A stretch of DNA of 64,000 bases from a virus. Below, one piece after another: positions 3,076 to 61,842 of this stretch. The number at the start of each line of letters is the position of its first letter. Positions within the stretch are counted from its first letter, which is position 1. The stretch covers positions 1 through 64,000 of IMG/VR virus record IMGVR_UViG_3300033149_003257. One strand, 5' to 3'. The notes beneath the pieces were generated by a model that saw only the letters and a list, made by a program, of their open reading frames with translations, did no database searches and was not told the DNA's origin. The position numbers and the translations under genes are program-made.

Positions 3076-3090
3076 AGGTTAAAAACTAAA

Positions 3091-3735: not shown

Positions 3736-3749
3736 AGGATATTTAAAAA

Positions 3750-6224: not shown

Positions 6225-6232
6225 TTATTCTT

Positions 6233-7351: not shown

Positions 7352-8875
7352 TTATACAGAAACATTAACTTCAGAACCAGAAACAACTATATTTACATTA
7401 CCAATAGAAGATGGACCTCTTCTTAATAAATCATCTGCTGTATTTTTAACAGAAGTAGACACTCGTCTAACAGCATTTTCAACTGGAGTTATATCTACAT
7501 TCATTCTAACATCTGAAGGATTTGCAGTAATAGTTACATCTCCAATAGAACCTGGCTCCAAAATTTTTAATGTATCCCCAAAATTTTTAACTGATTCTTC
7601 AATTCTTCTTGCAGTATTTTGAATTGGTGTAAAATCTACTCTCATATTTGCATTTGTTATACTACCAGTAACATTTACATCTGTAACTTGCGGAATAGCA
7701 GATGATAATTCATTACCAAAATCTTCCATATAATTTTTAATTCTATCTGCTGTATTTTGTGCAGTTGATGATGGGTCAATACTTAAATTTGTATTTCTAA
7801 TATTTCTTTTTGTTTCTATGAAATTAGATTTTCCAATAATTGTATTATTATAATATTGTTCACCTTCTTTCATTGTAACTCTACTAGTAGATTTTGAAGA
7901 TTTCATTGCATCAATATATGATTTCACATTTGGTCTATCATGAGTAAGTTTTGTACCTGCTAACATACTATTAAATAAACTTCCAAAATCTATTCTAACA
8001 TCAACAATTCCCATTCTTTGATTATAAGCAATTTGTTGTTGATCTCCACCTTTTACTATAGTTACATTACTTATAAAAGCCGGATCTAAATTATAAATAC
8101 CCGGTGCTTTTATTTTATGTAGAAATGGCCAGTTATAAGTATTTCCATCTCCAGATATTGGAACAGCTAAAAGAAGTAATGCAGCTATTGGTCCAACAAT
8201 ATATTTTAGGGTATATGTTTCACTTGATGGAACTGGATTATATAATCTAATTGTCATTGAATATGATGGAGAAAAGCCACTATTTTTCCAAACCTGAGGG
8301 AAATCAATTCTAGCGCCAGCTAACATTTTAGAAGTAATATCAGTTATATTTTGAGATGCACCACCACTCATTTTTGATAAGGAAGACATAACTCCAGATA
8401 TTGCTGCACCACCTTTTTCCATTGCTTTACTTAAATATTCAGAAACTACTCCACCACCAGATAATTGTGTTTGAATATTTTTAAAAGCATCTGTAGCAGT
8501 TCTCGTTCCTAAAAGTTGATTAATAGTTGCAGCTCCCTCAGAAGCAACATTTGTAAATTTTTGTAGAAAACTTTCTCCATATTCATTTGTAAAAGAATCA
8601 GTTGGAAAATTATCTGCTATAAAAGCAACTCGAACTGCTTTTACTGAGGATCCATTTTCAATTTCGAAACCTAAATGAGATAAGAGTTCAGTATAAGATG
8701 GGCTGTCTGGAGACTTCCCAGTATCCCAAGCAGATTTTAAACTAAATAATGTCATACCTTTTCTAAATTCTGGAATACATGGTCTGATAGAAGCTATTGG
8801 CATCGAATTCAATATCATTTTATCACTTACATAAGTTCTAGGAGGTAAACCAATAATTGATGGAATTGTAGTCAT
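7352..8875 (-). CDS. Baseplate/tail-tube initiator-like structural protein (T4 gp48/gp54-like)
   Basis: FPQVWKNSGFSPSYSMTIRLYNP and PFLHKIKAPGIYNLDPAFISNVTI tube-fold-like motifs; follows the tape-measure gene. Confidence 0.55.
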   Translation of the reverse strand: MTTIPSIIGLPPRTYVSDKMILNSMPIASIRPCIPEFRKGMTLFSLKSAWDTGKSPDSPSYTELLSHLGFEIENGSSVKAVRVAFIADNFPTDSFTNEYGESFLQKFTNVASEGAATINQLLGTRTATDAFKNIQTQLSGGGVVSEYLSKAMEKGGAAISGVMSSLSKMSGGASQNITDITSKMLAGARIDFPQVWKNSGFSPSYSMTIRLYNPVPSSETYTLKYIVGPIAALLLLAVPISGDGNTYNWPFLHKIKAPGIYNLDPAFISNVTIVKGGDQQQIAYNQRMGIVDVRIDFGSLFNSMLAGTKLTHDRPNVKSYIDAMKSSKSTSRVTMKEGEQYYNNTIIGKSNFIETKRNIRNTNLSIDPSSTAQNTADRIKNYMEDFGNELSSAIPQVTDVNVTGSITNANMRVDFTPIQNTARRIEESVKNFGDTLKILEPGSIGDVTITANPSDVRMNVDITPVENAVRRVSTSVKNTADDLLRRGPSSIGNVNIVVSGSEVNVSV

Positions 8876-26751: not shown

Positions 26752-29700
26752 TTAGTTTTTATTACCTCTCTTAACTCCTATAGATATTAAATAAGCATCT
26801 AATAATTTAACAGATTCTGAAACTATAGACTGTTCTTTTTGATCTTTAATATGATCTGATTCAATTATTTCTTTGATATAGTTATTTTTTAAATCAATAC
26901 AATCAGATTTAGTAGTTAAAAATTCAAATAAATTACATGGCGCATCATGTGCAATTAAACAAGCAGTTTCCATTTCACCACACCTTTGTCCGCCTCTATT
27001 TTTTCTCCCCCCTAAAGGTTGTAAAGTTTTTCTAGCATATGAACCAATTCCTCTAACTGCTAATTTCTCTTCTGCTATATGAGAAATTTTTGAGAAATAT
27101 AAATATCCAACTGCAATAGGATTTTGAACAATTGTTTGATTTATTGGATCATATATTTCTGATTCAAATTCAGTATTTGTATATTTCATAATAGATTTTA
27201 ACTGTTCTATATTAATAGATTCAAAAGGAGGTTGTATTATAGTAAGATTATTAATAAAATTTTCATCTATAATATCAGGACATTGTTCTTTAAATTGATT
27301 AGAATACCATTTATCTTTTGTACTATCAATCATTTCAATATATTTAATAATATAATCTTTTGTTTCTTTATTACTAAATTTATTTAAATTTTTTAAAGCT
27401 TCTTGTTTTAAATTATAAAAAGACATAGACAAATGTAGTTCAAATAATTGACCAATATTCATTCTAGATATTATACCAAGTGGGTTGATACATATATCAA
27501 CATGTCTACCATCTTTTAATTTTGGCATCTTTTGATGATCAATAATATTAGAAACTATACCTTTATTACCATGTCGATTTACTATTTTATCTCCTATTTG
27601 TATATCTCTAAAAAATATTCCATTTATTTCAACTCTAATTCCATTTACTTTTTCATTTTTAAATTTATATTTTCCAGAATGAGAAAACTTATTTAATCTT
27701 TTTTCTCTAATTATATTTTCTGCTCTATTTTTTGGGAATAAATCAAAAATGATATCTTTAAATTTATTTTCATCTTTAATTTGTCTTTCTGTTATATTAG
27801 TTATCCAATCTACAAATTCAGGAATATCAGTATTCCACTCATTAGCAAATACATTTACTTCTGTAATAATCATATTCTTTTTTACTTTTAATGGAATCTC
27901 TTCTTCAAATATAGAACAGAAATTTGGAACTGAAACTAATTCTTTCAAAATTGCATATGGTTTACCTATTTTAATTGTTTCAAATTTATTAGGAATTGGT
28001 TTATATATTTCTTTATCTAAACTTAATAACACTTTATTTGGAGGTATATTAAATGATAAATCTTCTATGTGTATTGATGTAAGTGATTCATCTTTCACTA
28101 ATCTATCTGAAATAATAATTCCATCTTCATAATTATATCCATAGTATGACATTACAGCACATAAAAGATTTTTTCCTAAATTTATCTTACCATTTGTTAA
28201 AAAATTACTTTCTGCTAATATATCACCTTTCTTAAATTTATCACCAACTCTTACATAAAGACTCATAAAATCCATATTTTCAACATATATATTTCTAGCT
28301 GATATATCAAAAATATCAGAAGTATTATCATTATAAGTTACAATAAGAAAATTAGTATCGATATATAACACTTCACCATCTTTTTTAGCTATTTTAATAA
28401 ATTGGGTATATTTAGTATACAAACTTTCACAACCAGATTGAATCATTGGTATATCAAAATTTTTTAACATTACTGATTGTCTCATTTGTGAAGAAGCCAT
28501 TTGTAATCTTGTTTGATCATTATGTTCTAAAAATGGAATCATAGAAATTGGTATAGAAATAGGTTCTTTTTCTAGAAATTCTTTTTTAAATCTCAAATTT
28601 TCATCTAATTTAACATTTGGAATTAAACTTTGTAATACCCCACAATTATCTCTATCTGGTGTATCTACTGGACATATTCTTCCAAACATTGTTTCAGATA
28701 TATCACGTAAATGTTTTGGAACATTCTCTCTTTTAAAACCTCCTGGACCCAGTAAACTAGTTCTAGATAATCTAGTCAATTCATCAATAGGATTTATAGA
28801 AAAATCAAATTGAACTATATCGGATACATTACAATCTGATAATATTTGACTAGAATTTATATTAAATTTTGGTTGTCTGGAAGTTCTATTTGACATACAT
28901 AAATCAAAAATTGTTTTTGAAACTCTAGTTAATATTATATATTCAAAACATCTTATTCTTTTGTTAATGAAATTAGTATCATCAAAAGGTCCATTTTCAA
29001 TTGCATTAACTAATTCATCTAGAACGTTATTTGTTTTAAAAAATCTTTTTGACGTTATATCTGTTTTCATTATTAAATCTAAAGCATATACAACATTATC
29101 ACCTTTAGTTCTAGAATCATATTTAGAATACATTCTACCAAGTTCTAAAATATAATCATCCTGTGAAAAACCTTCGGATTCCTCATAATACATTTTTAAA
29201 TCAAACAATAACTTTTCAATTAATGTATTTGGATTATTTGATATTGTAATAGATGAAAAATTATATTTATCATCTAAATAATCTGGGCCAAAATATGAAA
29301 ACATTAATAACGATAAAGGAACTTTCTTTCCTAGAAAACTAGCCATAACGAGAGGTTCTTGTATTTCAGAATCTAGTTTTCTTGTATTTTCAATAACTAA
29401 TATAGTTGCTACATTTGTTCTTAACTTAATATTTTTACCTCTAGTTACAATAGGAATATCAAATAATTGAAACTGTGGTATTTTTTTCTTTCCATTAATA
29501 ATAATATAATTATCATCAACTAATTTTGGAATATACATACTGAGATCTAACTCAAAAGTTCCTTTTTTCAATTTTATTACTAAATTTTGTTTTAACGTTT
29601 TTTGTAATTCTCCAGAAGAAAATTTATGATCTTTTATTGTGCATTCAATAATTTCAAAACCAATTTCTTCTACTGTTTTTACTATTTCTTGAATTTGTTG

Positions 29701-29781
29701 AAGAAGATTAGAATATTCTAATTTTCTAATAGTAAAAACATTATTATTTTGAATCTTAAAATTCGGATTTATAATATCCAA
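26752..29781 (-). CDS. rpoB: Multisubunit RNA polymerase beta subunit, copy 1
   Basis: GPGG, GRICPVDTPD, MRQSV, GYNYEDG, GDKIVNRHGNKG, NPLGIISRMNIGQ, QPLGGR..GGQRCGEME. Confidence 0.95.
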   Translation of the reverse strand: MDIINPNFKIQNNNVFTIRKLEYSNLLQQIQEIVKTVEEIGFEIIECTIKDHKFSSGELQKTLKQNLVIKLKKGTFELDLSMYIPKLVDDNYIIINGKKKIPQFQLFDIPIVTRGKNIKLRTNVATILVIENTRKLDSEIQEPLVMASFLGKKVPLSLLMFSYFGPDYLDDKYNFSSITISNNPNTLIEKLLFDLKMYYEESEGFSQDDYILELGRMYSKYDSRTKGDNVVYALDLIMKTDITSKRFFKTNNVLDELVNAIENGPFDDTNFINKRIRCFEYIILTRVSKTIFDLCMSNRTSRQPKFNINSSQILSDCNVSDIVQFDFSINPIDELTRLSRTSLLGPGGFKRENVPKHLRDISETMFGRICPVDTPDRDNCGVLQSLIPNVKLDENLRFKKEFLEKEPISIPISMIPFLEHNDQTRLQMASSQMRQSVMLKNFDIPMIQSGCESLYTKYTQFIKIAKKDGEVLYIDTNFLIVTYNDNTSDIFDISARNIYVENMDFMSLYVRVGDKFKKGDILAESNFLTNGKINLGKNLLCAVMSYYGYNYEDGIIISDRLVKDESLTSIHIEDLSFNIPPNKVLLSLDKEIYKPIPNKFETIKIGKPYAILKELVSVPNFCSIFEEEIPLKVKKNMIITEVNVFANEWNTDIPEFVDWITNITERQIKDENKFKDIIFDLFPKNRAENIIREKRLNKFSHSGKYKFKNEKVNGIRVEINGIFFRDIQIGDKIVNRHGNKGIVSNIIDHQKMPKLKDGRHVDICINPLGIISRMNIGQLFELHLSMSFYNLKQEALKNLNKFSNKETKDYIIKYIEMIDSTKDKWYSNQFKEQCPDIIDENFINNLTIIQPPFESINIEQLKSIMKYTNTEFESEIYDPINQTIVQNPIAVGYLYFSKISHIAEEKLAVRGIGSYARKTLQPLGGRKNRGGQRCGEMETACLIAHDAPCNLFEFLTTKSDCIDLKNNYIKEIIESDHIKDQKEQSIVSESVKLLDAYLISIGVKRGNKN

Positions 29782-29792
29782 AATATAAACTC

Positions 29793-32498
29793 CTATATTC
29801 TTTCCCCTCTTAATATTTTGTCCATAATACCTTTGTAAAAACCAGAATTAAAAATGCCATTTATAATATGTTTTTTAGGATTTGAAAATGCTAAACCAAG
29901 TAACCAACTTTCAAAAGATGGAACTGATTGTATACTATAATAATCAGGTTCTATTGTTTCTCTATTTTCTAGTAATCTCCATTTTCTAAATTCTTTCCAC
30001 ATTAACTGAGCTACAACACATTCAAAATGAACATGATGTATATTTCCTTCTATATTATAAACTTCAAATAATTCATCAACTATATCTTTATAATTTTTTC
30101 CTTTAAATTTATGTAATAATTTACTAACTATAGATAAATCTCCAATAATATCCATTTGTTTCATTACATTTTTCTTATCACTTTTATTTGTAATTGCGGA
30201 ACCTGAAGTGTGAAATGTACGTAATACTAATTGTGTATTATGTTCTCCTAATGATTGTGCAGCAATAACTCCAATAAATTTACTATCAATAAATTTATAC
30301 AAATCACCATAACATTTATGACATATATTTTCACTTTTACAAAATATGGGACTTCTTAAATAAATAGTTTTTCCAATAATTTCTCGATAATTATTTTCAT
30401 CTATAATTTTTAATATACTATCTTCTAAATGATATCTATACATAAGCATTTTAGCTTTCTTTTCATTATTTACAAAAACTTGTAAATAATCTTTTGTTCC
30501 ACAATCATCAAAAGTTAAAGAAATTTGTAAATTAGCACAACTAAATATTAATTTTCTAGATAAATATCCAGAGGTTCCAGTATTTAATGCAACATCTAAT
30601 AACCCTTTTCTACAACCAAATGTAGACATAAAAAATTCTTTCTCATCTAACCCATCTATTAAACAATTTTTAATGGGAGTAGATAAAATTTCACCATCAA
30701 AATTCGAAACAAATCCTCTTGTTAAAGTTATTTGTCTAATTTGATCCCAATTTCCTCTAGCACCAGATTTTATCATATCGGAATAATGAAAATTATCTTT
30801 TAGAAAATTCAAAGTATCATCACTTAAAACGTTTTGTAATTGCTCTCCAACATCTTTACAATTATAAATATTATTTTGAACTTCTTTATAATTTGGAATT
30901 ACACATTGATTCAGAGATAAAGTAGTACCAAAGAGTGTTGTATATTTAAAACCTTCTTTTTTAATTTTATCTAAAACTTGAGATGTTTCAATAGAATTAT
31001 ACTTTGTTTTTATATCATTTAAAATAAAACTTAAAATTCTCTTATCTACTGGATAATCTATTAGATCATAATCTTCTGGTAAACATTCATTAAATATTTT
31101 TCTAGATTCTGTAATTTCTTTTCCTTTATAAAAAGCTTTATCTTGAAGTGAGTCCAATTTATTGGAAGTTAAAATATGAATTCCAAAAATAATATCTTGA
31201 TTTGGTAATGGTACTAAACTATTATTAGATGGACTATTTAAATTTTTGCTCATTAAAAATTTATCTTTAATTTCCTGTTTAGATTCTTCTGTTATTGGAA
31301 TATAAACAGCCATTTGGTCTCCATCGAAATCAGCATTAAAGCCTCTGCAAGATAATGGATGTATTTTAATTACATTTTCAAGAGATACTTTAATTTTAAA
31401 TCCAATCATACCTAATCTATGTAAAGATGGTTGTCGATTTAAAATACATACTTCATCAGTAACAATTTGTTCACAAATTCTAAATAAAGAGGGAATTTTA
31501 TACTCTATACAATCTTCAACAAATTCAATGGCATCGCTTAATGTTTTAAATTTTCTTAATTCAATTAATTTTTTCGAAACTTGAATTTTAAATAATTCTA
31601 AAATCATTATATAAGGTAATACACATTCATCAATATCTAGAGTAGGTTCTGGAACAATTACTGCTCTACCAGAAAAATCTATTCTTTTACCAAGTATATT
31701 TCCTCTAATTAATCCTTCCTTTTTTGATAACTTATCTAAAATATGTTTATATAATTCATTAACATCATTTTGTAATTGTTTAAAATATTGATAAAATAGT
31801 TGTTTATCTCTATTAATATCTATTATAGTATCTTTCATAATTTCTCTTTTCATTAAGATCTGCATATAAAATCTATTTATTTTATCAACTACTTGATTAT
31901 TTTTACTTACGCTTTTTGCTGCAGGTCTCAAATCAGGAGGAAGAACAATTATTTGTTGTAAAAATAATTTATCAATATTATTTTTTATTATATTCCATTC
32001 ATCATAACCAATAGATGTTAAAGTGTCTGCAAAAGTAAATACTAAATTATATATAGCATCTAGTTTTTCCCATCTTTCACAATTTTCAGGAATATTATCT
32101 GGTTTTGTAACTACTAAGAAATCTTCTCCATCTTTATATAAAATACTATGTTCATTATGAAGTAATAAATCTATTGGATTTTTTATTTGTAAACCACCTA
32201 TATCTACTAAAAGATCATAAAATAATGGATTTATTACAGGTATAGGAAGAATTATTTTAGCAAATCTTCTTCTTCTTTCATAATTACTAACAATATCTAC
32301 TCCACATTCTTTACATTTTCCACCTGAAAAAGATATACCATAATATTTTCCACATTGACAAGTATAATTTTTCAATGGACCAAAAATTTGTTCAGAAAAT
32401 AATCCCTCTGAATGAAATTTTTTCTTATCCATTATTTTAGTTGAAGTAACCTCTTTCAAATCTTTACAAAATTCATTAAAATTTAAAAGTTCTGGCAT
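29793..32498 (-). CDS. rpoC: Multisubunit RNA polymerase beta' subunit, copy 1 (compact, 901 aa)
   Basis: GLFSEQIFGP plus zinc finger, PPDLRP, LGKRIDFSGR, NRQPSLH, NADFDGDQM, SGYLSRKL, TQLVLRTFH. Confidence 0.95.
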   Translation of the reverse strand: MPELLNFNEFCKDLKEVTSTKIMDKKKFHSEGLFSEQIFGPLKNYTCQCGKYYGISFSGGKCKECGVDIVSNYERRRRFAKIILPIPVINPLFYDLLVDIGGLQIKNPIDLLLHNEHSILYKDGEDFLVVTKPDNIPENCERWEKLDAIYNLVFTFADTLTSIGYDEWNIIKNNIDKLFLQQIIVLPPDLRPAAKSVSKNNQVVDKINRFYMQILMKREIMKDTIIDINRDKQLFYQYFKQLQNDVNELYKHILDKLSKKEGLIRGNILGKRIDFSGRAVIVPEPTLDIDECVLPYIMILELFKIQVSKKLIELRKFKTLSDAIEFVEDCIEYKIPSLFRICEQIVTDEVCILNRQPSLHRLGMIGFKIKVSLENVIKIHPLSCRGFNADFDGDQMAVYIPITEESKQEIKDKFLMSKNLNSPSNNSLVPLPNQDIIFGIHILTSNKLDSLQDKAFYKGKEITESRKIFNECLPEDYDLIDYPVDKRILSFILNDIKTKYNSIETSQVLDKIKKEGFKYTTLFGTTLSLNQCVIPNYKEVQNNIYNCKDVGEQLQNVLSDDTLNFLKDNFHYSDMIKSGARGNWDQIRQITLTRGFVSNFDGEILSTPIKNCLIDGLDEKEFFMSTFGCRKGLLDVALNTGTSGYLSRKLIFSCANLQISLTFDDCGTKDYLQVFVNNEKKAKMLMYRYHLEDSILKIIDENNYREIIGKTIYLRSPIFCKSENICHKCYGDLYKFIDSKFIGVIAAQSLGEHNTQLVLRTFHTSGSAITNKSDKKNVMKQMDIIGDLSIVSKLLHKFKGKNYKDIVDELFEVYNIEGNIHHVHFECVVAQLMWKEFRKWRLLENRETIEPDYYSIQSVPSFESWLLGLAFSNPKKHIINGIFNSGFYKGIMDKILRGERI

Positions 32499-32740: not shown

Positions 32741-33109
32741 CTAATCTCCTTTACTTAATTGAATAAACATTGAATTTACTTTTTTATATTTTATAGATTT
32801 CCACAAAGTATAATAACATTCATCAAAATAAAAAGTTCTCAAATTATTTTCAATTATATTTAAAACTGAATCTGTTGGTTCAACATTTAAATACTTATCA
32901 GAAAGACAATAAATATGATTATCTGGATCACAATTTGGATGATAACCATTTAATATTATCTTTTTAATTTTTTGGTGATTCGTTATAATTAAATAACCAT
33001 TTATAATATGATCTTCTGGTAAATCTAAAATAACGTATAAACTTTTTTGGTAAATTATTCGATTTGGAATAATTCTTTTATTTATAAATAAAAAATCAAT
33101 TTTATCCAC
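32741..33109 (-). CDS. Putative minimal E2-like (UBC-fold) protein
   Basis: YHPNCDPDNHIYCL resembles the E2 HPN...CL catalytic motif; adjacent to an E1-like gene. Confidence 0.45.
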   Translation of the reverse strand: MDKIDFLFINKRIIPNRIIYQKSLYVILDLPEDHIINGYLIITNHQKIKKIILNGYHPNCDPDNHIYCLSDKYLNVEPTDSVLNIIENNLRTFYFDECYYTLWKSIKYKKVNSMFIQLSKGD

Positions 33110-33114
33110 TTTTT

Positions 33115-34086
33115 TTAAGCTGCTCCAGTTTCTTCAATTATTTCAACAAAAGAACCATCATCATCTTTATGAACACTAATAACAAAATTAGAAGTCATAA
33201 ATGGAAAATTGATCATAGAAGAAATAATAGATGTAACATCAGTAGAATCTCTTATATAACATTTAGGTATTGTTTTATTAAATAAGGAATGTTCTTTCTC
33301 ACCAAGACAAATTGTTAATGGATTCTCTTTATTTAATTTTATAATTGGAATAATATGTTCTGATAAATTTACTACTTTATCTGTTTTTTCAGTTGAATTA
33401 TAAATAATATCTATTCTTTTTGATATACTACTATCAATACTTTCTTGTAATAAATTATCTAAAAAATCTAAATGAACTCGATGTATTATTTGATTATTTA
33501 TAAAATAATAGATTTGTTTACTAGCAATTATTTGAGAAGCAAATGATGATGCTTTTTGTATATCAGATTTACTCAGTTTAATTATATATCTTCCTTCATA
33601 TTGATAATTTGTTTTTACATTTTTTCTGCAATCAATAATTAGACTTTTACCTGAAATATATAATCTAATATTTATTTCTTTTGATCTATTACATACAAAA
33701 TCTCTACAATCTATAACTAAATCACAATCAGAAAAACATTTGCATTTTTCTATATATTTATTTTTAAATTTTGTTACAGTTACATCATCTGATATAATTT
33801 CTTCTAAAACATCAACTTTAAACTTACCAATATGTTCATATTTATAAATAGATGTTTTTAGATTTTTATTTTCTACAATATCATTATCTATAATAACAAT
33901 TTCTTTTACATCACTTAAAAATGATAAGTATCTACATAAAAATCCACCTAAAGATCCCAATCCAATTATTGCAATTTTTCTTATTTTATATTTAAAATTA
34001 TCATTAAAGATATTAGTATATATAACATTTAATTTTTCTTCTTTAATCAAAGGTTCCTTATCATTTTGATATCTTTCCTCTTTCAC
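33115..34086 (-). CDS. ThiF/E1-like adenylation protein, copy 2 (divergent)
   Basis: IAIIGLGSLGG, IIDNDIVENKNL, GKFKV, VIDCRD. Confidence 0.8.
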   Translation of the reverse strand: MKEERYQNDKEPLIKEEKLNVIYTNIFNDNFKYKIRKIAIIGLGSLGGFLCRYLSFLSDVKEIVIIDNDIVENKNLKTSIYKYEHIGKFKVDVLEEIISDDVTVTKFKNKYIEKCKCFSDCDLVIDCRDFVCNRSKEINIRLYISGKSLIIDCRKNVKTNYQYEGRYIIKLSKSDIQKASSFASQIIASKQIYYFINNQIIHRVHLDFLDNLLQESIDSSISKRIDIIYNSTEKTDKVVNLSEHIIPIIKLNKENPLTICLGEKEHSLFNKTIPKCYIRDSTDVTSIISSMINFPFMTSNFVISVHKDDDGSFVEIIEETGAA

Positions 34087-35099: not shown

Positions 35100-35133
35100 A
35101 GGGGATAATATATACAAAATATATATTATCCCC
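35100..35133. terminator. Hairpin downstream of the ubiquitin-like gene
   Basis: aggggataatatata / tatatattatcccct. Confidence 0.6.
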
Positions 35134-35154
35134 TTTTCATTATTTAATTAATAA

Positions 35155-35622
35155 CTATTTATAACCTTTTCCACCAGCTGGTTTTAGAAATTCTAAATTA
35201 TCACCAAATTGTAAAACATAACCAGATGGAACCTGTTTTCCATTAACTATTCCATCTGCCATTTTGTCAATATTTAAAACTTCCCGAAGAAATTCAGAAA
35301 CCGCACCAACTGTTTTTCCAACAACATCAAAACGACCAGATGCAGCACCACTAGAAACTAAAATTGTTGTTGTGCACCTATCACCAAATCGAGCAGATGG
35401 TTTTGTAAAGCTGCTAGTAAATACAGCACTTATGTCTGTCACTTTATTAGAATCAACATTACTAATAGAAGGAGATGCTCCATATTTTTCTAAAATTGCA
35501 TCAATAACTACATCTTTTCTTTTCTTAGACATACCCGGTATATCTAATTCATAAACACACATAGTTCTAAGATCAGCGACAGTCCTAGCTTCCAACTCTT
35601 CTCTTGTAAATTCTTTTTTCAT
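35155..35622 (-). CDS. Ubiquitin-like (beta-grasp) protein with N-terminal Rho_N/HEH-like domain
   Basis: LEARTVADLRTM..ELDIPGMSKKRKDVVIDAIL (Rho_N-like). GKTVGAV...IVNG......VLQFGDNLEFLKPAGGKG(YK) (ThiS/MoaD/Ub-like). Downstream of E1. Confidence 0.8.
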   Translation of the reverse strand: MKKEFTREELEARTVADLRTMCVYELDIPGMSKKRKDVVIDAILEKYGASPSISNVDSNKVTDISAVFTSSFTKPSARFGDRCTTTILVSSGAASGRFDVVGKTVGAVSEFLREVLNIDKMADGIVNGKQVPSGYVLQFGDNLEFLKPAGGKGYK

Positions 35623-35634
35623 TTTTTTTTTCTC

Positions 35635-36342
35635 CTAAATAAAAGATTTTAAAAGTTTTTGCTTTGGTTTTCTAATTTTTGAGCTTGCTGACATAGTTTT
35701 TATATCAAAATATATTTCTGAGTAAGTATAATCTTTTAAAACTACAATATTATAAAAAGCCCAACACATAATTGTAGCAACTCCTAAATTAGTAAAATAT
35801 AATTGTGGATCAGACTGAGCTAATTCTTCACAAGACAAATCATCAGGATGATTATCTTGAGCATTAATTATTTCAGGATGATAATCCGTAACTTTTGGAG
35901 TTATATCAACATCATTATATCTAACATATATTTGGACATTTCCATCTGTATATTCATTACCACCAGAAATTAAAATTATATTTGATAATGTACTACAATA
36001 ATCTGAAACTATTCTTCTTGTTTTATGATTATCTACACATACAAAAACTATATCATTATTATAAATATAAGAAGAAATATTATCATCATTTAAAAATTGA
36101 GAAACAAAATTGATGTCTAAATTATTAAATTTTTTTCTCAATTCTTCCATTTTAACTTTTGATTTGTTACCTAACATCATAAAATCTTGTCTTTCAAAAT
36201 TTTTAGGTTCGTATGAATCACCATCAATTAATTTAATATGTGATTCAAAGTTATTTAAATAATTTAAAAATCTACATATTTTTTCTGATAATATAGAACC
36301 AATTCCACCCAAACCAATTATTTTAATATTAATACATTCCAT
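35635..36342 (-). CDS. ThiF/E1-like ubiquitin-activating enzyme, copy 1 (PRTRC-type)
   Basis: IIGLGGIGS, DGDSYEPKNFERQ, NKS, CVDNHKTR, SGGN, candidate catalytic Cys in LSCEE, PQLYFTN. Confidence 0.9.
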   Translation of the reverse strand: MECINIKIIGLGGIGSILSEKICRFLNYLNNFESHIKLIDGDSYEPKNFERQDFMMLGNKSKVKMEELRKKFNNLDINFVSQFLNDDNISSYIYNNDIVFVCVDNHKTRRIVSDYCSTLSNIILISGGNEYTDGNVQIYVRYNDVDITPKVTDYHPEIINAQDNHPDDLSCEELAQSDPQLYFTNLGVATIMCWAFYNIVVLKDYTYSEIYFDIKTMSASSKIRKPKQKLLKSFI

Positions 36343-36362: not shown

Positions 36363-37382
36363 TTAAAATTTCAATTTATTGGAATATTCTCTATTTGTTT
36401 TAATAATATCTTCTTGGGAATTATCACTAAAATTATAATTATCTTCATCAACATAAAAAAAATCTTCAACATCTACATCTAAATAATCTTCATTATCTTC
36501 ATCCCATTCTTCTATTTGTAATTTCATTTTATAATTTCTAAATACACATTCATTACATGGATTATATTCTTCATCTTCAATATTATTATTAAATAAGCTA
36601 TAATTAATATTTCCACTTGATAAGAAAGAAGAAGAAAATGGAAAAGATTGTTGATTATTATAAAAACTATAAGGGGACATTGAAAAATTGGAAACATAAA
36701 CTCTTTCAGATACATTTTTAAGCCAATCATTAACATTATAATTACATTTATTTTCATTTATTAAATATCTTAATTTTTTAAAATTATCTACTTCTTTAGA
36801 ATCTTCAGATAAAACAAGACCATCAATATATAAAGTTGGATCTACAATAAATCTAGAACCATTCGAAACTATACATGCAGATATACTAACATTTTCAGTA
36901 GGAATATTACCAATTGTTATATGTAAACCATCAAAATATTTTTCATCGTTGATATCTATACCGGAATGAAAAGCACTCATAAAACCATGAGAATGTATAG
37001 TTGCAATCATAATATAATTTTTTGGGCTTGCATTTCTTGTATATTTAATACCGCCTGGAGAAACTTCTTGCAATGGAGAATCGAAAAAATAACTATTATC
37101 TAACAAATTATAATATATAACTATAATTGACTCTCCTTTATACAAATCATATACTTTTTTGAAAAAAGTTATAATTTTATAAAATTCTTCGTTTGAAATT
37201 TTTGGAATATCTAATTTTGCAGAAGATGAAATACTATTTAATATAGAAATATTATCAACTGGTGTTATACTTTCTAATATCCCAACTTTCTTTTTTAAAA
37301 AAATACCTTCTTTAGCAACTATATAAAATATATCATCATCTGGAATCTCTTCTATTCCATTATTAATAAAAATTTTAAACAC
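36363..37382 (-). CDS. JAB/JAMM (MPN+) isopeptidase
   Basis: E...HSHGFMSAFHSGID fits HxH-x7-S-x2-D; GLHITIG; acidic C-terminal tail. Confidence 0.9.
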   Translation of the reverse strand: MFKIFINNGIEEIPDDDIFYIVAKEGIFLKKKVGILESITPVDNISILNSISSSAKLDIPKISNEEFYKIITFFKKVYDLYKGESIIVIYYNLLDNSYFFDSPLQEVSPGGIKYTRNASPKNYIMIATIHSHGFMSAFHSGIDINDEKYFDGLHITIGNIPTENVSISACIVSNGSRFIVDPTLYIDGLVLSEDSKEVDNFKKLRYLINENKCNYNVNDWLKNVSERVYVSNFSMSPYSFYNNQQSFPFSSSFLSSGNINYSLFNNNIEDEEYNPCNECVFRNYKMKLQIEEWDEDNEDYLDVDVEDFFYVDEDNYNFSDNSQEDIIKTNREYSNKLKF

Positions 37383-37387
37383 TATTT

Positions 37388-40042
37388 TTATTCTCCTATA
37401 ATATTAATAATTTCTTTGGGGTCTACCATAATCCCATACTCTCTACGAACATTCGTATCTTTTATTTCTGTATAAGAATTATGAAAAGTTGGAATTACTT
37501 TTTTAAATTGATTTTGATTTACAATTTGTTTTAAACTTTTTCTCGGATTTAATATTCCATATCTAGATATTATACCATTTTTTCTAAAATGTCGTGCATA
37601 AGAATGAGAATACTCATCTTTTATAATATTGACTAAATATTTTTTGTGTAATGGTTCATAACTAGAATTTTCTAACATAGTTATGTTATTATTCATAGTC
37701 TCAAAAATGTCACCACCTTGAAAACCAAAAGTAGAGAATAAAATAGAATCATGATTTATTTTTGACCATGATGGCATATCTTTTGTATATAGTTCAAAAT
37801 TTTCTAACAAATCATCAAACCAAATAGTACAACAGTTTGAACATAAAACTAAAGGTTGATTACAACCAGTATCTGTTAAAAAAGCAACAATAATATTTGC
37901 TTTACTTTTTGGAAAACATTTTATTCCTTTTACCTTTGCTTTTATCTTAGTTCCAACTTTTACACCATTATATTCCGAAGAAACATGTCTAATTGTTCCA
38001 GCATTTATTATTCCAGTTCTAAAACTAATAAAATTTTTCTCATAATTAATATTATCATTACTATTCATTGAAATTACCAAATGATGAAAATCATTTACTG
38101 AAAAATTTGTAATTTGTCTAATTTTTAACATATCTACTGGATTTCTCCAATCTACAAAAATAACTTTATCTCCTAGTGAAAATTGTATATCTAAATCAAA
38201 ACTTCTGATTTTAACATGATCATCAGCTAATATATCTTGTATATTAAAATTTCTATTATAATCTAATTTATCAAGTTGATCAATATAATATCCATCTTTT
38301 CTAACATTTATAATTAAATTCTTACTACTATGCTGTAAATATAATCCATTTCTTACAGTTGAAACCATATTAGCATCATTATTTTCAGTTTCATTAACAA
38401 TATTATGATAATTAAAAAAACTATTTATGTCATAAATTTCTACTTCTTTATTACTGTTTTCAAATATACATCCTAAAACATTATCTTCTGTTTCTGTATC
38501 AAAAGCAACAAATTTTAATAATTTATAAAAATGAATAATTGGACTAAATATTCTTCTACTTTTTTTCATACGTTCATTAAAATAATATTTCTTTCCTATT
38601 TCCAATTTAGTACCATTATTTAATACTATATTATTTAAATCTATATGCTCAGCGACAATAGAATCAGATAAATAATTATAATTATCTGTTATTATTTCTG
38701 CTTTACCATCGTAATTAATTCTAATTTTATTTACCTTATTATAAATACCTTCTATTGGAAAAGTAATTTTAATAATATCTCCGCTTTTTATTGTTACACC
38801 ATTTTTTAAAATAATTTCAGATAAAGAATTTGTATCAAAAATTTGATTCATATATTGCATAAATTTATTAGTTAATTTATACTTTACTACTTTACTATTT
38901 TCTCTATCTTCAAAATTAATATATCTAACTTCTTCAAAATTATTCTCAAAACTATTCTTAAAAATTAGAGAATATATATATTTAACTCTTCCATTATTAA
39001 ATTTAACGGAATCTCCAACAGACAATATACGATCATTTAAATAAAGATTTTTTGAAAAACTTTCTACAAGTGTATAATATTCTTCACCTTCTTCACTTAT
39101 TTCTAATTCATCTACAACATCAATACCTTCACTAAAAAAAGAAACTATATCAAAATAACCTATAATATTTTGTCTGTTTTTCTTGATCTTTTTTTGTATA
39201 AGTGTTTCTACTAATCCCTTCAAATGGACGTTAGCCTTTAACCAATTTACATTAAATATAAACATTGGATCTTTCATAGAATAATAAGACCATGTTAAAA
39301 AATCAGATAACTCTAAAGGTCCTTCTCGTTCGTAATCAATATAATGATATGAATAATCTTTATTAAATATATTTTTCCAGAATGCATTAATATAAGCTTC
39401 AATAGTTTCGTTACAGTTTCCATATGTATATTTATTAGTAATTTCGCCTAAACAAACAGAATAATTTGTATTAATATTTGTTAAATTCGGTTTTAAAAGG
39501 TCATCTTCTAAAGAACCAAATGGAGATAATTTAAAAAATACTTTCATTTCTTTTACTATAGGACCATCAAAAATAAATATATATATAATATAAGGAAATG
39601 ATAAAGATATTTTGTATGGAGATTTATTTTCTTGAAGGAAATTTTGTAAATTAAATATATCTATTTTTCCTTCAATTTTTAATTTTTCAATTATAGCTTC
39701 AAAATTAAAATCTATAAAAATAGTTCTTATTCTTGGTTGTTCTTCAATAACAAATATTTTTTTATGTGTTAAATCTTTAAAAAATCTACAGTTTTTAGGA
39801 AGCAACATATCTAAATCAGCATGTGAATCTTGTATTAATATTTTCTGCATATGCTTAAAAAAATCACTTGTGAGTAATGAAAATTTATTTGAAAAAGGTA
39901 CTACATTAGCTTCAGCTTCATTGATATCTTTTTCTACTAAATTTAATTCAGATATTTTTTCATTACTAAATGCTTTTATATTATATAAACCTGTTTTATT
40001 TCTATCAATAATTATACAATCATTTGTTGACATTGTTGACAT
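37388..40042 (-). CDS. Prokaryotic E2 (family D-like) domain fused to tandem KOW/SH3-like repeats
   Basis: LSFPYIIYIF...LLKPNLTNINTNYSVCLG...AFWKNIFN, then repeated hxxGDxh motifs (LSVGDSVK, IKSGDIIK, LEIGKKYY, FSLGDKVI, VKVGTKIK). Confidence 0.7.
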   Translation of the reverse strand: MSTMSTNDCIIIDRNKTGLYNIKAFSNEKISELNLVEKDINEAEANVVPFSNKFSLLTSDFFKHMQKILIQDSHADLDMLLPKNCRFFKDLTHKKIFVIEEQPRIRTIFIDFNFEAIIEKLKIEGKIDIFNLQNFLQENKSPYKISLSFPYIIYIFIFDGPIVKEMKVFFKLSPFGSLEDDLLKPNLTNINTNYSVCLGEITNKYTYGNCNETIEAYINAFWKNIFNKDYSYHYIDYEREGPLELSDFLTWSYYSMKDPMFIFNVNWLKANVHLKGLVETLIQKKIKKNRQNIIGYFDIVSFFSEGIDVVDELEISEEGEEYYTLVESFSKNLYLNDRILSVGDSVKFNNGRVKYIYSLIFKNSFENNFEEVRYINFEDRENSKVVKYKLTNKFMQYMNQIFDTNSLSEIILKNGVTIKSGDIIKITFPIEGIYNKVNKIRINYDGKAEIITDNYNYLSDSIVAEHIDLNNIVLNNGTKLEIGKKYYFNERMKKSRRIFSPIIHFYKLLKFVAFDTETEDNVLGCIFENSNKEVEIYDINSFFNYHNIVNETENNDANMVSTVRNGLYLQHSSKNLIINVRKDGYYIDQLDKLDYNRNFNIQDILADDHVKIRSFDLDIQFSLGDKVIFVDWRNPVDMLKIRQITNFSVNDFHHLVISMNSNDNINYEKNFISFRTGIINAGTIRHVSSEYNGVKVGTKIKAKVKGIKCFPKSKANIIVAFLTDTGCNQPLVLCSNCCTIWFDDLLENFELYTKDMPSWSKINHDSILFSTFGFQGGDIFETMNNNITMLENSSYEPLHKKYLVNIIKDEYSHSYARHFRKNGIISRYGILNPRKSLKQIVNQNQFKKVIPTFHNSYTEIKDTNVRREYGIMVDPKEIINIIGE

Positions 40043-41095: not shown

Positions 41096-42121
41096 TTATA
41101 TCCTTTTTTCTCGGTGCATAACAATTTCTGATAAACTAGGGTTTTTTTCAACAATATTTGACATTAACATACATGTCCAATTACATTTTCTACAAAGTTC
41201 TTTTTTATTCTTTTTAATAAAAGAATTTAAAAATGGACTTATTTCTTTATCTTTCAAAAATATTTTATCTGCTGGAAATACTCCAATACTTCCTTTTATT
41301 CGCAAACATAATCTAACCGTTCCATCAGCATCTATTGATAAATTATGTAAATTATTTTCAATTTTACAATCCATCTCAGATGGAAGTATATTTATAATTT
41401 TATTTAAAAAGTTAGATCCCATATGTACATCTAAATTCTCTTTTTGTATTAAATCTATTTGCTCTTCTAAAATTTTTGTTCTACTTACTAAGAGACTTTT
41501 ATCAGAAACATTAGAAAAATCATAATATGGAGTTTTTGCTATATCAATAAAAGTTATAGAACTACTTATATTATAGTCAGATAAATATTTTACTAGAGAA
41601 TATAAATACTCAACATTATTATTATCAACTGTAATTTCAGCAACTAGATCTTTTATAATTCCTTTATATTTAGAAAGATTTATTAATCCCTGTGTACTTT
41701 TTTTCATTCTGTCAGAAAATTCTTCATCAGAGAAAATTAGTGGATCAATTGAAGAAGTCAATCCAGAAATATATGGTACACTAATCATTAAATCTTCTAA
41801 TTTATCTTGAACTTCTTCTGAATTATTTGTAATAATTGTATAATGTATACCTTTCTTATTACAATATACAACTATTTCTGCAAGATCTTCTCTTAATAAT
41901 GGTTCACCACCATAAAATATATGAAACATATCTGAATTATGGTTATAAAATTTTTCTAAACAATTTATAACAAACGAAGTAGACATTTCATTTTCATAAT
42001 AATATTTCATATTTGGATATGCTTTTGGTTTATCTTTATAATTTCTAACAATTCCACAATAAGAACATCTAAGATTACACTTTCTTGTTAATAACCAATT
42101 AACAATTCTAATTTCTGACAT
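41096..42121 (-). CDS. Radical SAM enzyme with C-terminal Cys cluster (twitch/SPASM-like)
   Basis: CNLRCSYC, YGGEPLL, ITN, C..IDADGTVRLC..CRKCNWTC. Confidence 0.9.
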   Translation of the reverse strand: MSEIRIVNWLLTRKCNLRCSYCGIVRNYKDKPKAYPNMKYYYENEMSTSFVINCLEKFYNHNSDMFHIFYGGEPLLREDLAEIVVYCNKKGIHYTIITNNSEEVQDKLEDLMISVPYISGLTSSIDPLIFSDEEFSDRMKKSTQGLINLSKYKGIIKDLVAEITVDNNNVEYLYSLVKYLSDYNISSSITFIDIAKTPYYDFSNVSDKSLLVSRTKILEEQIDLIQKENLDVHMGSNFLNKIINILPSEMDCKIENNLHNLSIDADGTVRLCLRIKGSIGVFPADKIFLKDKEISPFLNSFIKKNKKELCRKCNWTCMLMSNIVEKNPSLSEIVMHREKRI

Positions 42122-61831: not shown

Positions 61832-61842
61832 AAATTAATCTC

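What the first reader, a model, noticed from the sequence alone, without database searches (positions are those of the whole stretch)
35155..35622. Ubl modifier fused to a Rho_N/HEH-like domain and capped by a 2-residue tail
Seen: the N-terminal ~47 aa look like a Rho_N/HEH helical module, followed by a Ser-rich linker and a beta-grasp domain ending PAGGKG-YK*. Established: conjugation needs a free C-terminal Gly, and JAB peptidases mature Ubl precursors. Inference: the neighbouring JAB must clip YK, and conjugation would graft a nucleic-acid-binding module onto targets, acting as a localisation tag rather than a degradation tag. Caveat: the codon after Gly is TAT, one change from TAA, so the tail may be a recent stop-loss.
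Basis: partly seen in the sequence, partly recalled or inferred. Interest (0 to 1): 0.72.

Follow-up and report, generated by a model that had tools for sequence, protein, structure and literature searches.

The report
Phage ubiquitin-like modifier with HEH domain
A jumbo phage encodes a ubiquitin-like tag fused to a Rho-type helical domain and ending in two spare residues that the neighbouring JAB peptidase most likely trims; it is one member of a large, undescribed phage family of such tags.

Summary
ORF 35155-35622 (minus strand, 155 aa) has three parts: an N-terminal Rho_N-type helix-extended-helix (HEH) domain, a Ser-rich disordered linker, and a beta-grasp domain ending PAGGKG-YK-stop.

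It is not a one-off. More than 370 clusters (at 50% identity) share the architecture, and none is in a GenBank phage record. In 80 IMG/VR loci the gene lies in a fixed block: 884-aa E2_D-like protein, JAB, ThiF E1, Ubl, second E1-like, HPN..Cys E2-like, RNA polymerase beta'/beta.

The family ends in an invariant Lys and a 95%-conserved Gly. About 70% of loci stop there, about 20% add one Cys, and a few add other short tails. Relatives include head-to-tail poly-Ubl genes and proteins with long extensions after KG. Tail state flips at least 15 times on a 76-tip tree, so tails look disposable.

All JAMM catalytic residues are invariant. A JAB-Ubl complex model passes its controls (0.81 against 0.01), with the Ubl tail on the catalytic residues. 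YK itself is unique and fits a TAA-to-TAT stop-loss.

JAB maturation and conjugation are therefore well supported by inference. The idea that the HEH domain is a nucleic-acid localisation tag is untested. The same stretch was noted twice in this genome, and not on other DNA. I class it as a new variant of a known kind.

The parts
35155..35622 (-). Ubl precursor gene, 155 aa plus TAG stop
   Evidence: ORF list and sequence. 273 homologues and 372 clusters at 50% identity.
35473..35622 (-). Residues 1-50: Rho_N-type helix-extended-helix domain (helices 7-12, 15-25, 36-47)
   Evidence: Pfam Rho_N E 5.5e-4. 63 of 133 homologues match Rho_N. Family profile against Rho 3l0o E 9.5e-5. AF2 pLDDT 86-90. 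Atlas TM 0.72-0.85 to Rho N-terminal models.
35377..35472 (-). Residues 51-82: Ser/Ala/Thr-rich linker. The first part is disordered. Residues 66-82 are semi-conserved (S70, P75, G80) and modelled as an extra strand.
   Evidence: pLDDT 50-66. Composition and a length range of 18-59 residues across the family.
35164..35376 (-). Residues 83-153: beta-grasp ubiquitin-like domain ending LEFLKPAGGKG. G92 and K152 are invariant, G153 is 95% conserved.
   Evidence: AF2 pLDDT about 90. Fold matches only to Ubl proteins. Conservation.
35158..35163 (-). Residues 154-155: the Tyr-Lys cap after the conserved terminal Gly (codons TAT AAA, then TAG)
   Evidence: Sequence. Unique among homologue tails. Touches the JAB catalytic residues in the complex model.
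35100..35134 (.). Perfect 15-bp palindromic hairpin 20 nt after the Ubl stop, probably the end of the four-gene transcription unit
   Evidence: Terminator scan: 5 sites found against 0.8 expected.
35635..36342 (-). ThiF-type E1 (235 aa) directly upstream. GxGGxG, R51-Q52, D104 and C171 are invariant. It has no rhodanese domain.
   Evidence: Pfam ThiF 5e-19. PRTRC_ThiF 2.9e-13, below its cut-off. Conservation in 69 sequences.
36363..37382 (-). JAB/JAMM peptidase (339 aa) with an N-terminal JAB-N-like region and a CxxC motif. E84, H130, H132, S140 and D143 are invariant.
   Evidence: Prok-JAB 2.2e-4. PRTRC_A 1.1e-8. Alignment A3. Complex model.
37388..40042 (-). 884-aa protein with an E2 family D-like region (residues 181-237). 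N189, C197 and G199 are invariant.
   Evidence: Prok-E2_D E 0.0093, below its cut-off. Conservation in 39 sequences.
33115..34086 (-). Second ThiF-like protein (323 aa). It lacks the R-Q of the NxxRQ motif but keeps GxGxxG, D67, K90 and C127.
   Evidence: Pfam ThiF 2.5e-14. Conservation in 63 sequences. Present in 79 of 80 loci.
32741..33109 (-). 122-aa minimal E2-like protein with invariant H57-P58-N59 and C68
   Evidence: Alignment A2. AF2 pLDDT 92.6. Weak fold matches are dominated by UBC E2 enzymes, best Z 4.8. The best PDB sequence hits are E2s aligned on HPN..C, E 0.2-0.56.

Best explanation
The gene encodes the precursor of a phage-made ubiquitin-like modifier. An N-terminal Rho_N-type HEH domain and a flexible linker precede a beta-grasp domain whose reactive end is Lys152-Gly153.

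Inferred mechanism, in order:
1. The JAB/JAMM peptidase encoded two genes upstream binds the beta-grasp domain and cuts after Gly153, removing Tyr-Lys.
2. The adjacent ThiF-type E1 adenylates Gly153 and probably takes it as a thioester on Cys171.
3. The Ubl passes to an E2-like cysteine, either C197 of the 884-aa protein or C68 of the 122-aa HPN..Cys protein.
4. The Ubl ends on a lysine of phage or host proteins, and JAB can also reverse this.

Every conjugate would carry the HEH domain. What the HEH domain binds is unknown.

The YK tail has no role of its own. It is most likely a tolerated stop-loss in a family where anything after KG is removed.

Shown here: the gene, the domain folds (as predictions), family-wide conservation, fixed gene order and intact catalytic motifs. 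Inferred: cleavage, activation, conjugation and targets.
For: - Architecture and folds.
- The terminus is conserved: K152 in 100% and G153 in 95% of 133 sequences.
- Processing is a family property. 56 of 79 IMG/VR loci end at KG, 17 add Cys and 6 add other tails.
- Relatives include 2-4 head-to-tail Ubl units joined by 1-3 residues (P0154, P0158, P0208, P0227, P0216). Others have long extensions after KG (P0150, P0189, P0259, L058).
- Tail state changes at least 15 times on an E1 tree of 76 tips. Shuffled labels give a mean of 19.8.
- JAB is present in all 74 loci whose upstream DNA is held, including those whose Ubl has no tail. Its role therefore goes beyond trimming.
- The JAMM residues are invariant.
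- The JAB(1-200)-Ubl(80-155)-Zn model gives a median ipSAE of 0.81 against a best control of 0.01. In the tool's calibration, 58 of 80 solved complexes and 2 of 110 mismatched pairs reached the pass mark. The three runs agree in at least 98% of contacts, and partner pLDDT is 89.
- The modelled interface holds E84, H130, H132, S140 and D143 of JAB and residues 146-155 of the Ubl. It also holds the Ubl's most conserved surface, G92, A93, L116 and N117.
- The E1 has intact ATP motifs and an invariant Cys.
- Two E2-like proteins have invariant Cys residues.
- Precedents: BilC pre-processes BilA and cleaves its conjugates (PMC10557695). QbsD trims the CF cap of QbsE (PMC5925218).
Against: - No conjugate, cleavage product or target has been observed, so every enzymatic step is inferred.
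- JAMM-ubiquitin complexes are solved, so the complex model may pass from likeness to them and not show that this pair binds.
- Both E2 assignments are weak by score: Prok-E2_D E 0.0093, and best fold Z 4.8 for the 122-aa protein.
- The Ubl matches no curated modifier family. ThiS scores 16.3 bits and Prok_Ub and PRTRC_C give no hit.
- The terminus is Lys-Gly, not Gly-Gly.
- A JAB plus a capped Ubl also occurs in sulfur-carrier pathways.
Confidence: 0.6

Rival explanations
1. The protein is a sulfur-carrier protein. JAB exposes Gly153, the ThiF enzyme adenylates it, and a thiocarboxylate forms and donates sulfur to a small molecule, tRNA or DNA base. This would resemble QbsE/QbsD/QbsC, CxnE/CxnF or CysO/Mec+.
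For: - A short cap removed by a neighbouring JAMM peptidase is documented for the sulfur carriers QbsE (GG-CF) and CxnE (PMC5925218).
- There are weak ThiS and MoaD-type matches: ThiS E 0.015 in the window protein, 9 of 133 homologues at E <= 1e-3, and moaD_arch in 6.
- MoaD and TtuB are among the top fold matches.
- Cys is the commonest cap, which recalls the CysO-Cys adduct (my own knowledge).
- A radical SAM gene is conserved 5 kb upstream.
Against: - The E1 has no rhodanese domain.
- No sulfurtransferase, cysteine desulfurase or thiolation enzyme was found in the block.
- The radical SAM protein is nearest to viperin-type enzymes.
- Two E2-like proteins with invariant Cys are fixed members of the block.
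- Head-to-tail poly-Ubl relatives and the 0-3 HEH domains have no parallel among sulfur carriers.
- The terminus is KG, not GG.
Confidence: 0.12
2. The protein is processed but never conjugated. JAB cuts it, and cuts its poly-Ubl relatives, and the released HEH-Ubl acts non-covalently as an assembly chaperone or adaptor. The lambda tail-assembly Ubl (TAPI) with its JAB partner was proposed to work this way.
For: - Iyer et al. 2006 describe phage Ubl plus JAB pairs in tail assembly that work without an E1 or E2 (PMC1779556).
- The block is a vertically inherited core block, not an accessory island.
Against: - An adenylation-competent E1 with an invariant Cys sits next to the Ubl in 75 of 80 loci. 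The absences are at contig ends.
- A strictly conserved KG terminus is hard to explain without C-terminal chemistry.
Confidence: 0.1
3. Conjugation occurs, but the HEH domain is not a nucleic-acid handle. It docks the modifier on its own enzymes (the 884-aa protein or the second E1), or on a repetitive protein lattice such as a capsid or shell. Alternatively its Lys-rich loop is the acceptor site for Ubl chains.
For: - The HEH domain is near neutral: mean net charge +1.4, and zero in the window protein.
- In Rho the N-terminal helical subdomain is not the primary RNA-binding site (my own knowledge).
- Bacterial Bil and Bub Ubls carry other N-terminal domains (coiled coil, DUF1508, N/G-rich) that point to self-association and not DNA binding (PMC11601603).
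- K33 and K36 are conserved at 89% and 93%.
Against: - Copy number varies from 0 to 3 tandem HEH domains, which suits avidity for a polymer such as DNA or RNA.
- Some relatives add K/A-rich, weakly NUMOD3-like segments after KG (18.8 bits against a 20.4-bit cut-off).
- SAP, LEM and HeH relatives commonly bind DNA (my own knowledge).
Confidence: 0.3

Closest known systems
PRTRC / operon type 6d of Iyer et al. 2006 (JAB with JAB-N, ThiF E1, small Prok_Ub, E2 family D)
   Same: - The JAB is nearest to PRTRC_A (E 1.1e-8) and the E1 to PRTRC_ThiF (E 2.9e-13).
- The 884-aa protein has a weak Prok-E2_D region.
- Gene content matches the 6d description.
- A cultured Bacillus jumbo phage, vB_BauM_KLEB27-3, carries this type with a fourfold poly-Prok_Ub whose repeats end VKAGVKG.
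   Different: - All scores are far below the NCBIfam cut-offs.
- The Ubl hits neither Prok_Ub nor PRTRC_C.
- No ParB was seen.
- The E2_D-like region sits inside an 884-aa protein.
- A second E1-like protein and an HPN..Cys E2-like protein are added.
- The host is a lytic-type jumbo phage, not a conjugative element.
- The Ubl carries an HEH domain.
Bil system (BilA Ubl, BilB E2, BilC JAB, BilD E1)
   Same: - The parts list is the same.
- BilC has been shown to pre-process BilA to expose the terminal Gly and to cleave conjugates (PMC10557695).
- Some BilA and BubA proteins have extra N-terminal domains (PMC11601603).
   Different: - Bil is a bacterial anti-phage defence system, whereas this is a core gene block of the phage itself.
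- PADLOC gives only a weak BilD hit, to the second E1 (E 0.0018).
- An HEH domain is not among the N-terminal domains reported for Bil or Bub Ubls.
QbsE/QbsD (thioquinolobactin) and CxnE/CxnF (chuangxinmycin) sulfur carriers
   Same: A beta-grasp carrier is encoded with a short C-terminal cap (CF in QbsE, a decapeptide in CxnE), and a neighbouring JAMM peptidase removes it before adenylation (PMC5925218).
   Different: - Those are GG-ended sulfur carriers working with rhodanese-bearing MoeZ/QbsC enzymes.
- They have no E2-like proteins.
- They lie in small-molecule biosynthetic clusters.
Eukaryotic ubiquitin precursors (polyubiquitin and ubiquitin-ribosomal protein fusions)
   Same: - There are head-to-tail repeats.
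- Polyubiquitin ends in a single extra residue. Human UBB ends in Cys, UBC in Val and yeast UBI4 in Asn (my own knowledge).
- Unrelated proteins are fused after the terminal Gly.
- All three forms occur in this phage family.
   Different: - There is no detectable sequence relationship beyond the fold (about 20% identity).
- The terminus is KG, not RGG.
- The processing enzyme is a JAMM metallopeptidase encoded in the same operon.
Transcription terminator Rho, N-terminal helical subdomain (Pfam Rho_N, SAP/HeH clan)
   Same: Sequence and predicted fold of residues 1-50 match.
   Different: There is no OB-fold RNA-binding domain and no ATPase. The domain is fused to a Ubl and occurs in 0-3 copies.

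Membership tests
Pfam Rho_N (PF07498) | Sequence match to the family model at or above the gathering score (24.9 bits) | tested here: inconclusive
   The window protein scores 20.3 bits, E 5.5e-4, below the cut-off. Homologues pass: P0150 30.9, P0189 34.7 and P0161 53.5 bits. 63 of 133 match at E <= 1e-3.
Pfam Rho_N (PF07498) | Helix-extended-helix fold like the N-terminus of Rho | tested here: met
   AF2 gives helices 7-12, 15-25 and 36-47 at pLDDT 86-90. The family profile hits Rho 3l0o at E 9.5e-5. TM is 0.72-0.85 to Rho N-terminal models.
Nucleic-acid-binding SAP/HeH modules | Binds DNA or RNA | not testable with these tools
   Only indirect data are available: net charge about +1.4, conserved K33 and K36, and 0-3 copies.
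Ubiquitin-like protein modifiers | Beta-grasp fold | tested here: met
   Z 8.4 (Fubi, rmsd 1.9 A over 66 residues), 8.1 (MoaD) and 8.0 (ISG15). All top rows are Ubl proteins.
Ubiquitin-like protein modifiers | Conserved C-terminal Gly that is free or can be freed by a peptidase | tested here: met
   G153 is 95% and K152 100% conserved. 56 of 79 loci end at the Gly and the rest carry short caps.
Ubiquitin-like protein modifiers | Cognate E1 adenylating enzyme with a catalytic Cys | tested here: met
   The adjacent ThiF scores 5e-19. GxGGxG, R51, Q52, D104 and C171 are invariant in 69 sequences. Activity was not tested.
Ubiquitin-like protein modifiers | E2 with a catalytic Cys | tested here: inconclusive
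   The 122-aa protein has invariant HPN..C, pLDDT 92.6 and E2s dominating weak fold matches (Z <= 4.8). The 884-aa protein scores Prok-E2_D E 0.0093 and has invariant N189, C197 and G199.
Ubiquitin-like protein modifiers | Isopeptide conjugates on target lysines | not testable with these tools
   This needs mass spectrometry or western blots.
JAMM/MPN+ metallopeptidases (partner enzyme) | E...HxH-x7-S-xx-D zinc site | tested here: met
   E84, H130, H132, S140 and D143 are invariant in 37 sequences.
PRTRC system (NCBIfam TIGR03735, TIGR03736, TIGR03738) | Components score above the curated cut-offs, and the Ubl is PRTRC protein C / Prok_Ub | tested here: not met
   PRTRC_A scores 34.9 bits against a cut-off of 101.8. 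PRTRC_ThiF scores 49.7 against 144.75. The Ubl has no PRTRC_C or Prok_Ub hit.
ThiS/MoaD sulfur carriers | Family model match, Gly-Gly terminus and a sulfur-transfer partner | tested here: not met
   ThiS scores 16.3 bits against a cut-off of 22.5. The terminus is Lys-Gly. No rhodanese or sulfurtransferase was found in the block. Only the 64-kb window was examined.
Bil system | PADLOC Bil models match the components | tested here: not met
   The only hit is BilD at E 0.0018, on the second E1. The Ubl, JAB and 884-aa protein have none.

The most novel reading that the evidence does not exclude
A widespread clade of uncultured jumbo phages that encode their own RNA polymerases keeps a eukaryote-like conjugation cascade as a core, vertically inherited function. 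The cascade has two E1-like proteins, an HPN-Cys E2, an E2_D giant and a JAMM peptidase. Its modifier is itself a binding module. Conjugation would covalently graft one to three HEH domains onto targets, tethering them to phage DNA or RNA, or it would build multivalent HEH-Ubl polymers. In either case the Ubl would act as a portable localisation or scaffolding tag and not as a degradation mark.
Probability: 0.25. Interest if true: 0.85.

Novelty: new variant of a known kind. Interest (0 to 1): 0.62.

Why it matters
Ubiquitin-like conjugation in bacteria is currently known as an anti-phage defence (Bil, Bub, CBASS Cap2). Here the phage owns the machinery, and as a conserved core block, not a sporadic accessory. 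The modifier carries an extra domain, so each conjugation event would deliver a binding module to the target, a use of a Ubl with few parallels.

The family also shows, in one lineage, all three precursor forms known from eukaryotic ubiquitin: a single-residue cap, polyubiquitin-like repeats and fusions to other proteins. That makes it a useful comparison for how precursor processing evolves.

A cultured Bacillus jumbo phage with a related poly-Prok_Ub, E2_D, JAB and ThiF set (OM634661) offers a laboratory entry point.

For annotation, the result defines a new beta-grasp family with a diagnostic C-terminal motif, [LI]E[FY][LIV]KxxGxKG, that no current Pfam or NCBIfam model captures.

Tried and rejected
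- tblastn of the Ubl against 50,697 GenBank phage records gave no match at E <= 1e-3, and megablast of 12 kb gave none. The family is therefore known only from metagenomes.
- PHROGs, PADLOC and NCBIfam gave no family for the Ubl.
With the closer alignment A4, 53 pattern matches were found but none was a relative. This tests close relatives only.
- hhalign of the family profile against the Bacillus phage poly-Prok_Ub aligned only the last 20 columns (probability 9%, E 0.0037). Homology of the two Ubl families is not shown.
- No public sequencing run was listed for the 7.1-kb block, so there is no RNA holder and no read evidence.
- Promoter-like sites in the block were no more frequent than in shuffled sequence: 95 found against 95.5 expected.
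- The + strand ORF 35264-35554 (96 aa) overlapping the gene was rejected as spurious, because the conserved frame is on the minus strand.
- I considered that the radical SAM gene upstream might mark a sulfur pathway. Its best match is viperin-type, 53.7 bits against a cut-off of 180, so it gives no support.
- Literature searches for a phage-encoded HEH-Ubl or a jumbo-phage ubiquitin system found nothing on it. The 2021 jumbo-phage survey does not mention it.
Full report
**The object**

The window is the first 64 kb of a 151,964-bp IMG/VR virus record that CheckV rates 49% complete. It encodes a T4-type large terminase, two sets of RNA polymerase beta/beta' genes, SbcC, a topoisomerase II subunit and a VgrG3-like spike domain. 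It is therefore an AT-rich jumbo phage.

The finding is the minus-strand ORF 35155-35622 (155 aa), with an AGGAG ribosome-binding site. Its 3' end reads GCT GGT GGA AAA GGT TAT AAA TAG. A perfect 15-bp hairpin follows 20 nt after the stop. The gene is the last in a tight four-gene run: an 884-aa protein, JAB, ThiF, then the Ubl.

**Checking the three parts**

Pfam gives only sub-threshold hits for the window protein: Rho_N 20.3 bits, ThiS 16.3 and TGS 15.4. Family-level evidence is much stronger.

- Sequence: an alignment of 133 homologues (A1) was used as a profile against PDB sequences. Its best hit is the N-terminus of Thermotoga Rho (3l0o, E 9.5e-5, residues 3-49 on 6-52). 63 of the 133 members match Rho_N on their own, best 9.1e-12.
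- Model: AlphaFold2 with A1 gives helices 7-12, 15-25 and 36-47 (pLDDT 86-90), a poorly ordered stretch at 51-70, and a confident beta-grasp at 83-146.
- Beta-grasp: every leading structural match is a ubiquitin-like beta-grasp. These are Fubi Z 8.4, MoaD 8.1, ISG15 8.0, and ubiquitin at TM 0.6-0.69 with rmsd 2.1-2.4 A.
- HEH: the ESM Atlas model of residues 1-49 superposes on Rho N-terminal models at TM 0.72-0.85.

**A large, unnamed family**

The word-indexed search found 273 homologues. The exhaustive search found 372 clusters at 50% identity, 100 of them at E <= 1e-10. No GenBank phage record holds a detectable copy, and no curated family covers the Ubl domain.

In A1, G92 and K152 are invariant. 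G153, G150, K147, E144, D141, N117 and L116 are conserved at 90% or more. The signature is LEFLKPAGxKG, so the terminus is Lys-Gly and not Gly-Gly.

**What the C-termini say**

Among the listed proteins, about half end exactly at KG and about a third add one Cys. The rest add F, L, Y, N, Q, I, R, LN, LL, SK and similar tails. YK occurs only here.

In 79 IMG/VR loci read directly from DNA, 56 end at KG, 17 add Cys and 6 add something else. The family also contains the following forms.

- Genes with two to four head-to-tail Ubl units separated by one to three residues. An example is P0154, with four units that each end EFVKEAGKKG.
- Stand-alone Ubls of 66-83 aa.
- Forms with two or three tandem HEH domains: P0002, P0175, P0161.
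- Forms with 40-165 extra residues after KG.

These are the three precursor forms known for eukaryotic ubiquitin. All of them require an endopeptidase that cuts after the Gly.

On a quick maximum-likelihood tree of the adjacent E1 (76 tips), tail against no tail needs at least 15 changes. Shuffled labels need 19.8 on average, with a minimum of 14. Cys against not-Cys needs at least 10 changes. Close pairs differ: L081 has FEKMCFFY and L082 has none at distance 0.05, L044 has none and L045 has VILTK, and L027 has none while L032 has C. The tree has many unresolved forks, so these counts are rough. The pattern is nevertheless one of disposable tails.

The dominance of Cys among single-residue caps is not what stop-loss from TAA or TAG would give, because Cys is one change from TGA only. 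I cannot explain it.

For the window, GGT TAT AAA TAG is one change from the GGN TAA AAA seen in L006, L008, L018, L022, L039 and L040.

**The surroundings**

In 80 IMG/VR loci I searched stop-to-stop frames with the window's proteins. The counts were:

| Protein | Loci with a match (of 80) |
|---|---|
| Second E1-like | 79 |
| RNA polymerase beta' and beta | 78 |
| First E1 | 75 |
| JAB | 74 |
| 122-aa protein | 70 |
| 884-aa protein | 68 |

Every absence of JAB or the first E1 lies where the contig ends. The same order appears in three long contigs found by exact look-up. Ubl identity falls to about 30-35% across these loci. The block is therefore an old, vertically inherited core of a phage clade, not an accessory island.

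Component by component:

- JAB keeps E84, H130, H132, S140 and D143 in all 37 aligned sequences. Its nearest family is PRTRC_A.
- The first E1 keeps GxGGxG, R51-Q52, D104 and C171 in 69 sequences and has no rhodanese domain. Its nearest family is PRTRC_ThiF.
- The 884-aa protein has a weak Prok-E2_D region with invariant N189, C197 and G199.
- The 122-aa protein has invariant H57-P58-N59 and C68 and folds confidently (pLDDT 92.6). Its weak fold matches are mostly UBC E2 enzymes, best Z 4.8 and Foldseek E >= 0.25. It is E2-like but not proven.

JAB is kept in lineages whose Ubl needs no trimming, so it must do more than mature the precursor. Deconjugation is the obvious second role.

**JAB and the tail**

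- Median ipSAE was 0.81 and the best control 0.01.
- In the tool's calibration, 58 of 80 solved complexes and 2 of 110 mismatched pairs reached the pass mark.
- The three runs agree in at least 98% of contacts, and partner pLDDT is 89.
- The interface lists JAB residues 84, 130, 132, 140 and 143 and Ubl residues 146-155, so the tail lies on the catalytic site.
- It also lists G92, A93, L116 and N117, the most conserved surface of the Ubl.

JAMM-ubiquitin complexes are in the PDB, so the pass may reflect likeness to them. It supports cleavage but does not show it.

**Conjugation or sulfur transfer**

A capped beta-grasp plus a JAMM peptidase is also the pattern of the sulfur carriers QbsE/QbsD and CxnE/CxnF (PMC5925218). 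Four things argue against that reading here.

- There are two fixed E2-like proteins with invariant cysteines.
- No rhodanese or sulfurtransferase was found in the block.
- The family has poly-Ubl relatives.
- The Ubl carries HEH domains.

The nearest experimentally studied parallel is Bil, where the JAB enzyme BilC both pre-processes the Ubl and removes it from targets (PMC10557695). I put conjugation at about 0.6, sulfur carriage at 0.12, and a processed but unconjugated adaptor at 0.1.

**The HEH domain**

The fold is right, but its function is open. The domain is close to neutral, with mean net charge +1.4 and zero in the window protein. K33 and K36 are conserved. In Rho the N-terminal helical subdomain is not the main RNA-binding site (my own knowledge).

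In favour of a polymer-binding handle: copy number ranges from 0 to 3, and some relatives add K/A-rich, weakly NUMOD3-like segments after KG. Bacterial Bil and Bub Ubls also carry N-terminal accessory domains, but of other kinds (PMC11601603). The record holds no other Rho_N domain. The localisation-tag idea is a fair hypothesis at roughly 0.25-0.3, and nothing here tests it.

**Comparison and novelty**

By its enzymes, the system is nearest to the 6d/PRTRC type of Iyer et al. 2006 (PMC1779556). All scores are far below the family cut-offs, and the Ubl is not Prok_Ub.

Searching the first E1 against GenBank phages found cultured Bacillus jumbo phages. In vB_BauM_KLEB27-3 the neighbourhood holds four relevant genes:

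- a fourfold poly-Prok_Ub (gp199, PF14454 E 5e-27, repeats ending VKAGVKG followed by Met);
- an E2_D-like gp196;
- a PRTRC_A-type JAB, gp195;
- a ThiF, gp194.

Phage-borne systems of this general type therefore exist in culture, although I found no paper that discusses them.

The present family differs in four ways: a distinct Ubl with an HEH domain, the giant E2_D protein, the extra E1-like and HPN-Cys pair, and its fixed place beside the RNA polymerase genes. I class it as a new variant of a known kind.

**Verdict**

JAB maturation is well supported by inference. The YK tail is incidental. The localisation-tag idea remains a testable hypothesis.

Noticed in passing
L087 (OM634661.1, Bacillus phage vB_BauM_KLEB27-3) 742-6732: A cultured jumbo phage carries a fourfold head-to-tail poly-Prok_Ub gene (gp199, annotated hypothetical). 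Each repeat ends VKAGVKG followed by Met. It lies near an E2_D-like gp196, a PRTRC_A-type JAB gp195 and a ThiF gp194. This is a polyubiquitin-like gene in a laboratory phage, and it appears unremarked in the literature I could search.
   Followed up: partly
window 32741-33109 (-): A 122-aa protein has invariant His-Pro-Asn and Cys (H57, P58, N59, C68) in 46 homologues. This is the canonical eukaryotic E2 active-site signature. The model is confident (pLDDT 92.6), and UBC enzymes dominate its weak fold matches.
   Followed up: partly
window 33115-34086 (-): The second ThiF-like protein lacks the Arg-Gln of the NxxRQ motif but keeps GxGxxG, D67, K90 and C127. Its C-terminus is conserved as ..TGAA (G321 89%, A323 94%). 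It could be the inactive partner of a heterodimeric E1, or carry a ubiquitin-fold domain. Neither idea was tested.
   Followed up: no
window 36363-37382 (-) and homologues in alignment A3: Beyond the catalytic domain, the JAB proteins share an invariant CxxC (C276, C279). In many homologues this is followed by a variable number of extra Cys-pair (zinc-ribbon-like) motifs, and length ranges from 300 to 620 aa. The window copy is one of the short ones.
   Followed up: no
family-wide: A single Cys is by far the commonest cap after KG (67 of about 80 single-residue tails, and 17 of 23 capped IMG/VR loci). It was gained or lost at least 10 times on the E1 tree. Stop-loss from TAA or TAG cannot give Cys in one step, so some selection seems likely. 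I have no explanation.
   Followed up: partly
L005 (ENA scaffold, 9.2 kb) 2690-8366: The fourfold poly-Ubl P0154 lies near a ThiF gene and a reverse transcriptase (RVT_1). No RNA polymerase genes are in view, so this is a different genomic setting for the same Ubl family.
   Followed up: no
L081 and L082 (IMG/VR contigs of 458 kb and 177 kb): Megaphage-sized contigs carry the Ubl without an HEH domain, together with JAB, both E1-like proteins and the 884-aa protein, but without the adjacent RNA polymerase genes. Two near-identical contigs differ in the tail: FEKMCFFY against none.
   Followed up: partly
P0150, P0189, P0262, L058:9980-10621: Some homologues continue after KG with 60-75 residues rich in Lys and Ala that contain repeated ..RPEVKAK.. 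segments. P0189 gives a weak NUMOD3 match (18.8 bits against a cut-off of 20.4). This is a possible DNA-binding peptide that JAB cleavage would release.
   Followed up: partly
window 41096-42121 (-): A radical SAM protein is conserved in 61 of 80 loci just upstream of the block. Its best match is the prokaryotic viperin family, well below the cut-off (53.7 against 180 bits).
   Followed up: partly
window 26752-32498 and 57740-63999 (-): The window holds two separate sets of RNA polymerase beta/beta'-like genes. One is compact (1009 and 901 aa) and abuts the Ubl block. The other is larger (a 1363-aa beta-like protein plus a beta'-like protein that runs off the window).
   Followed up: no
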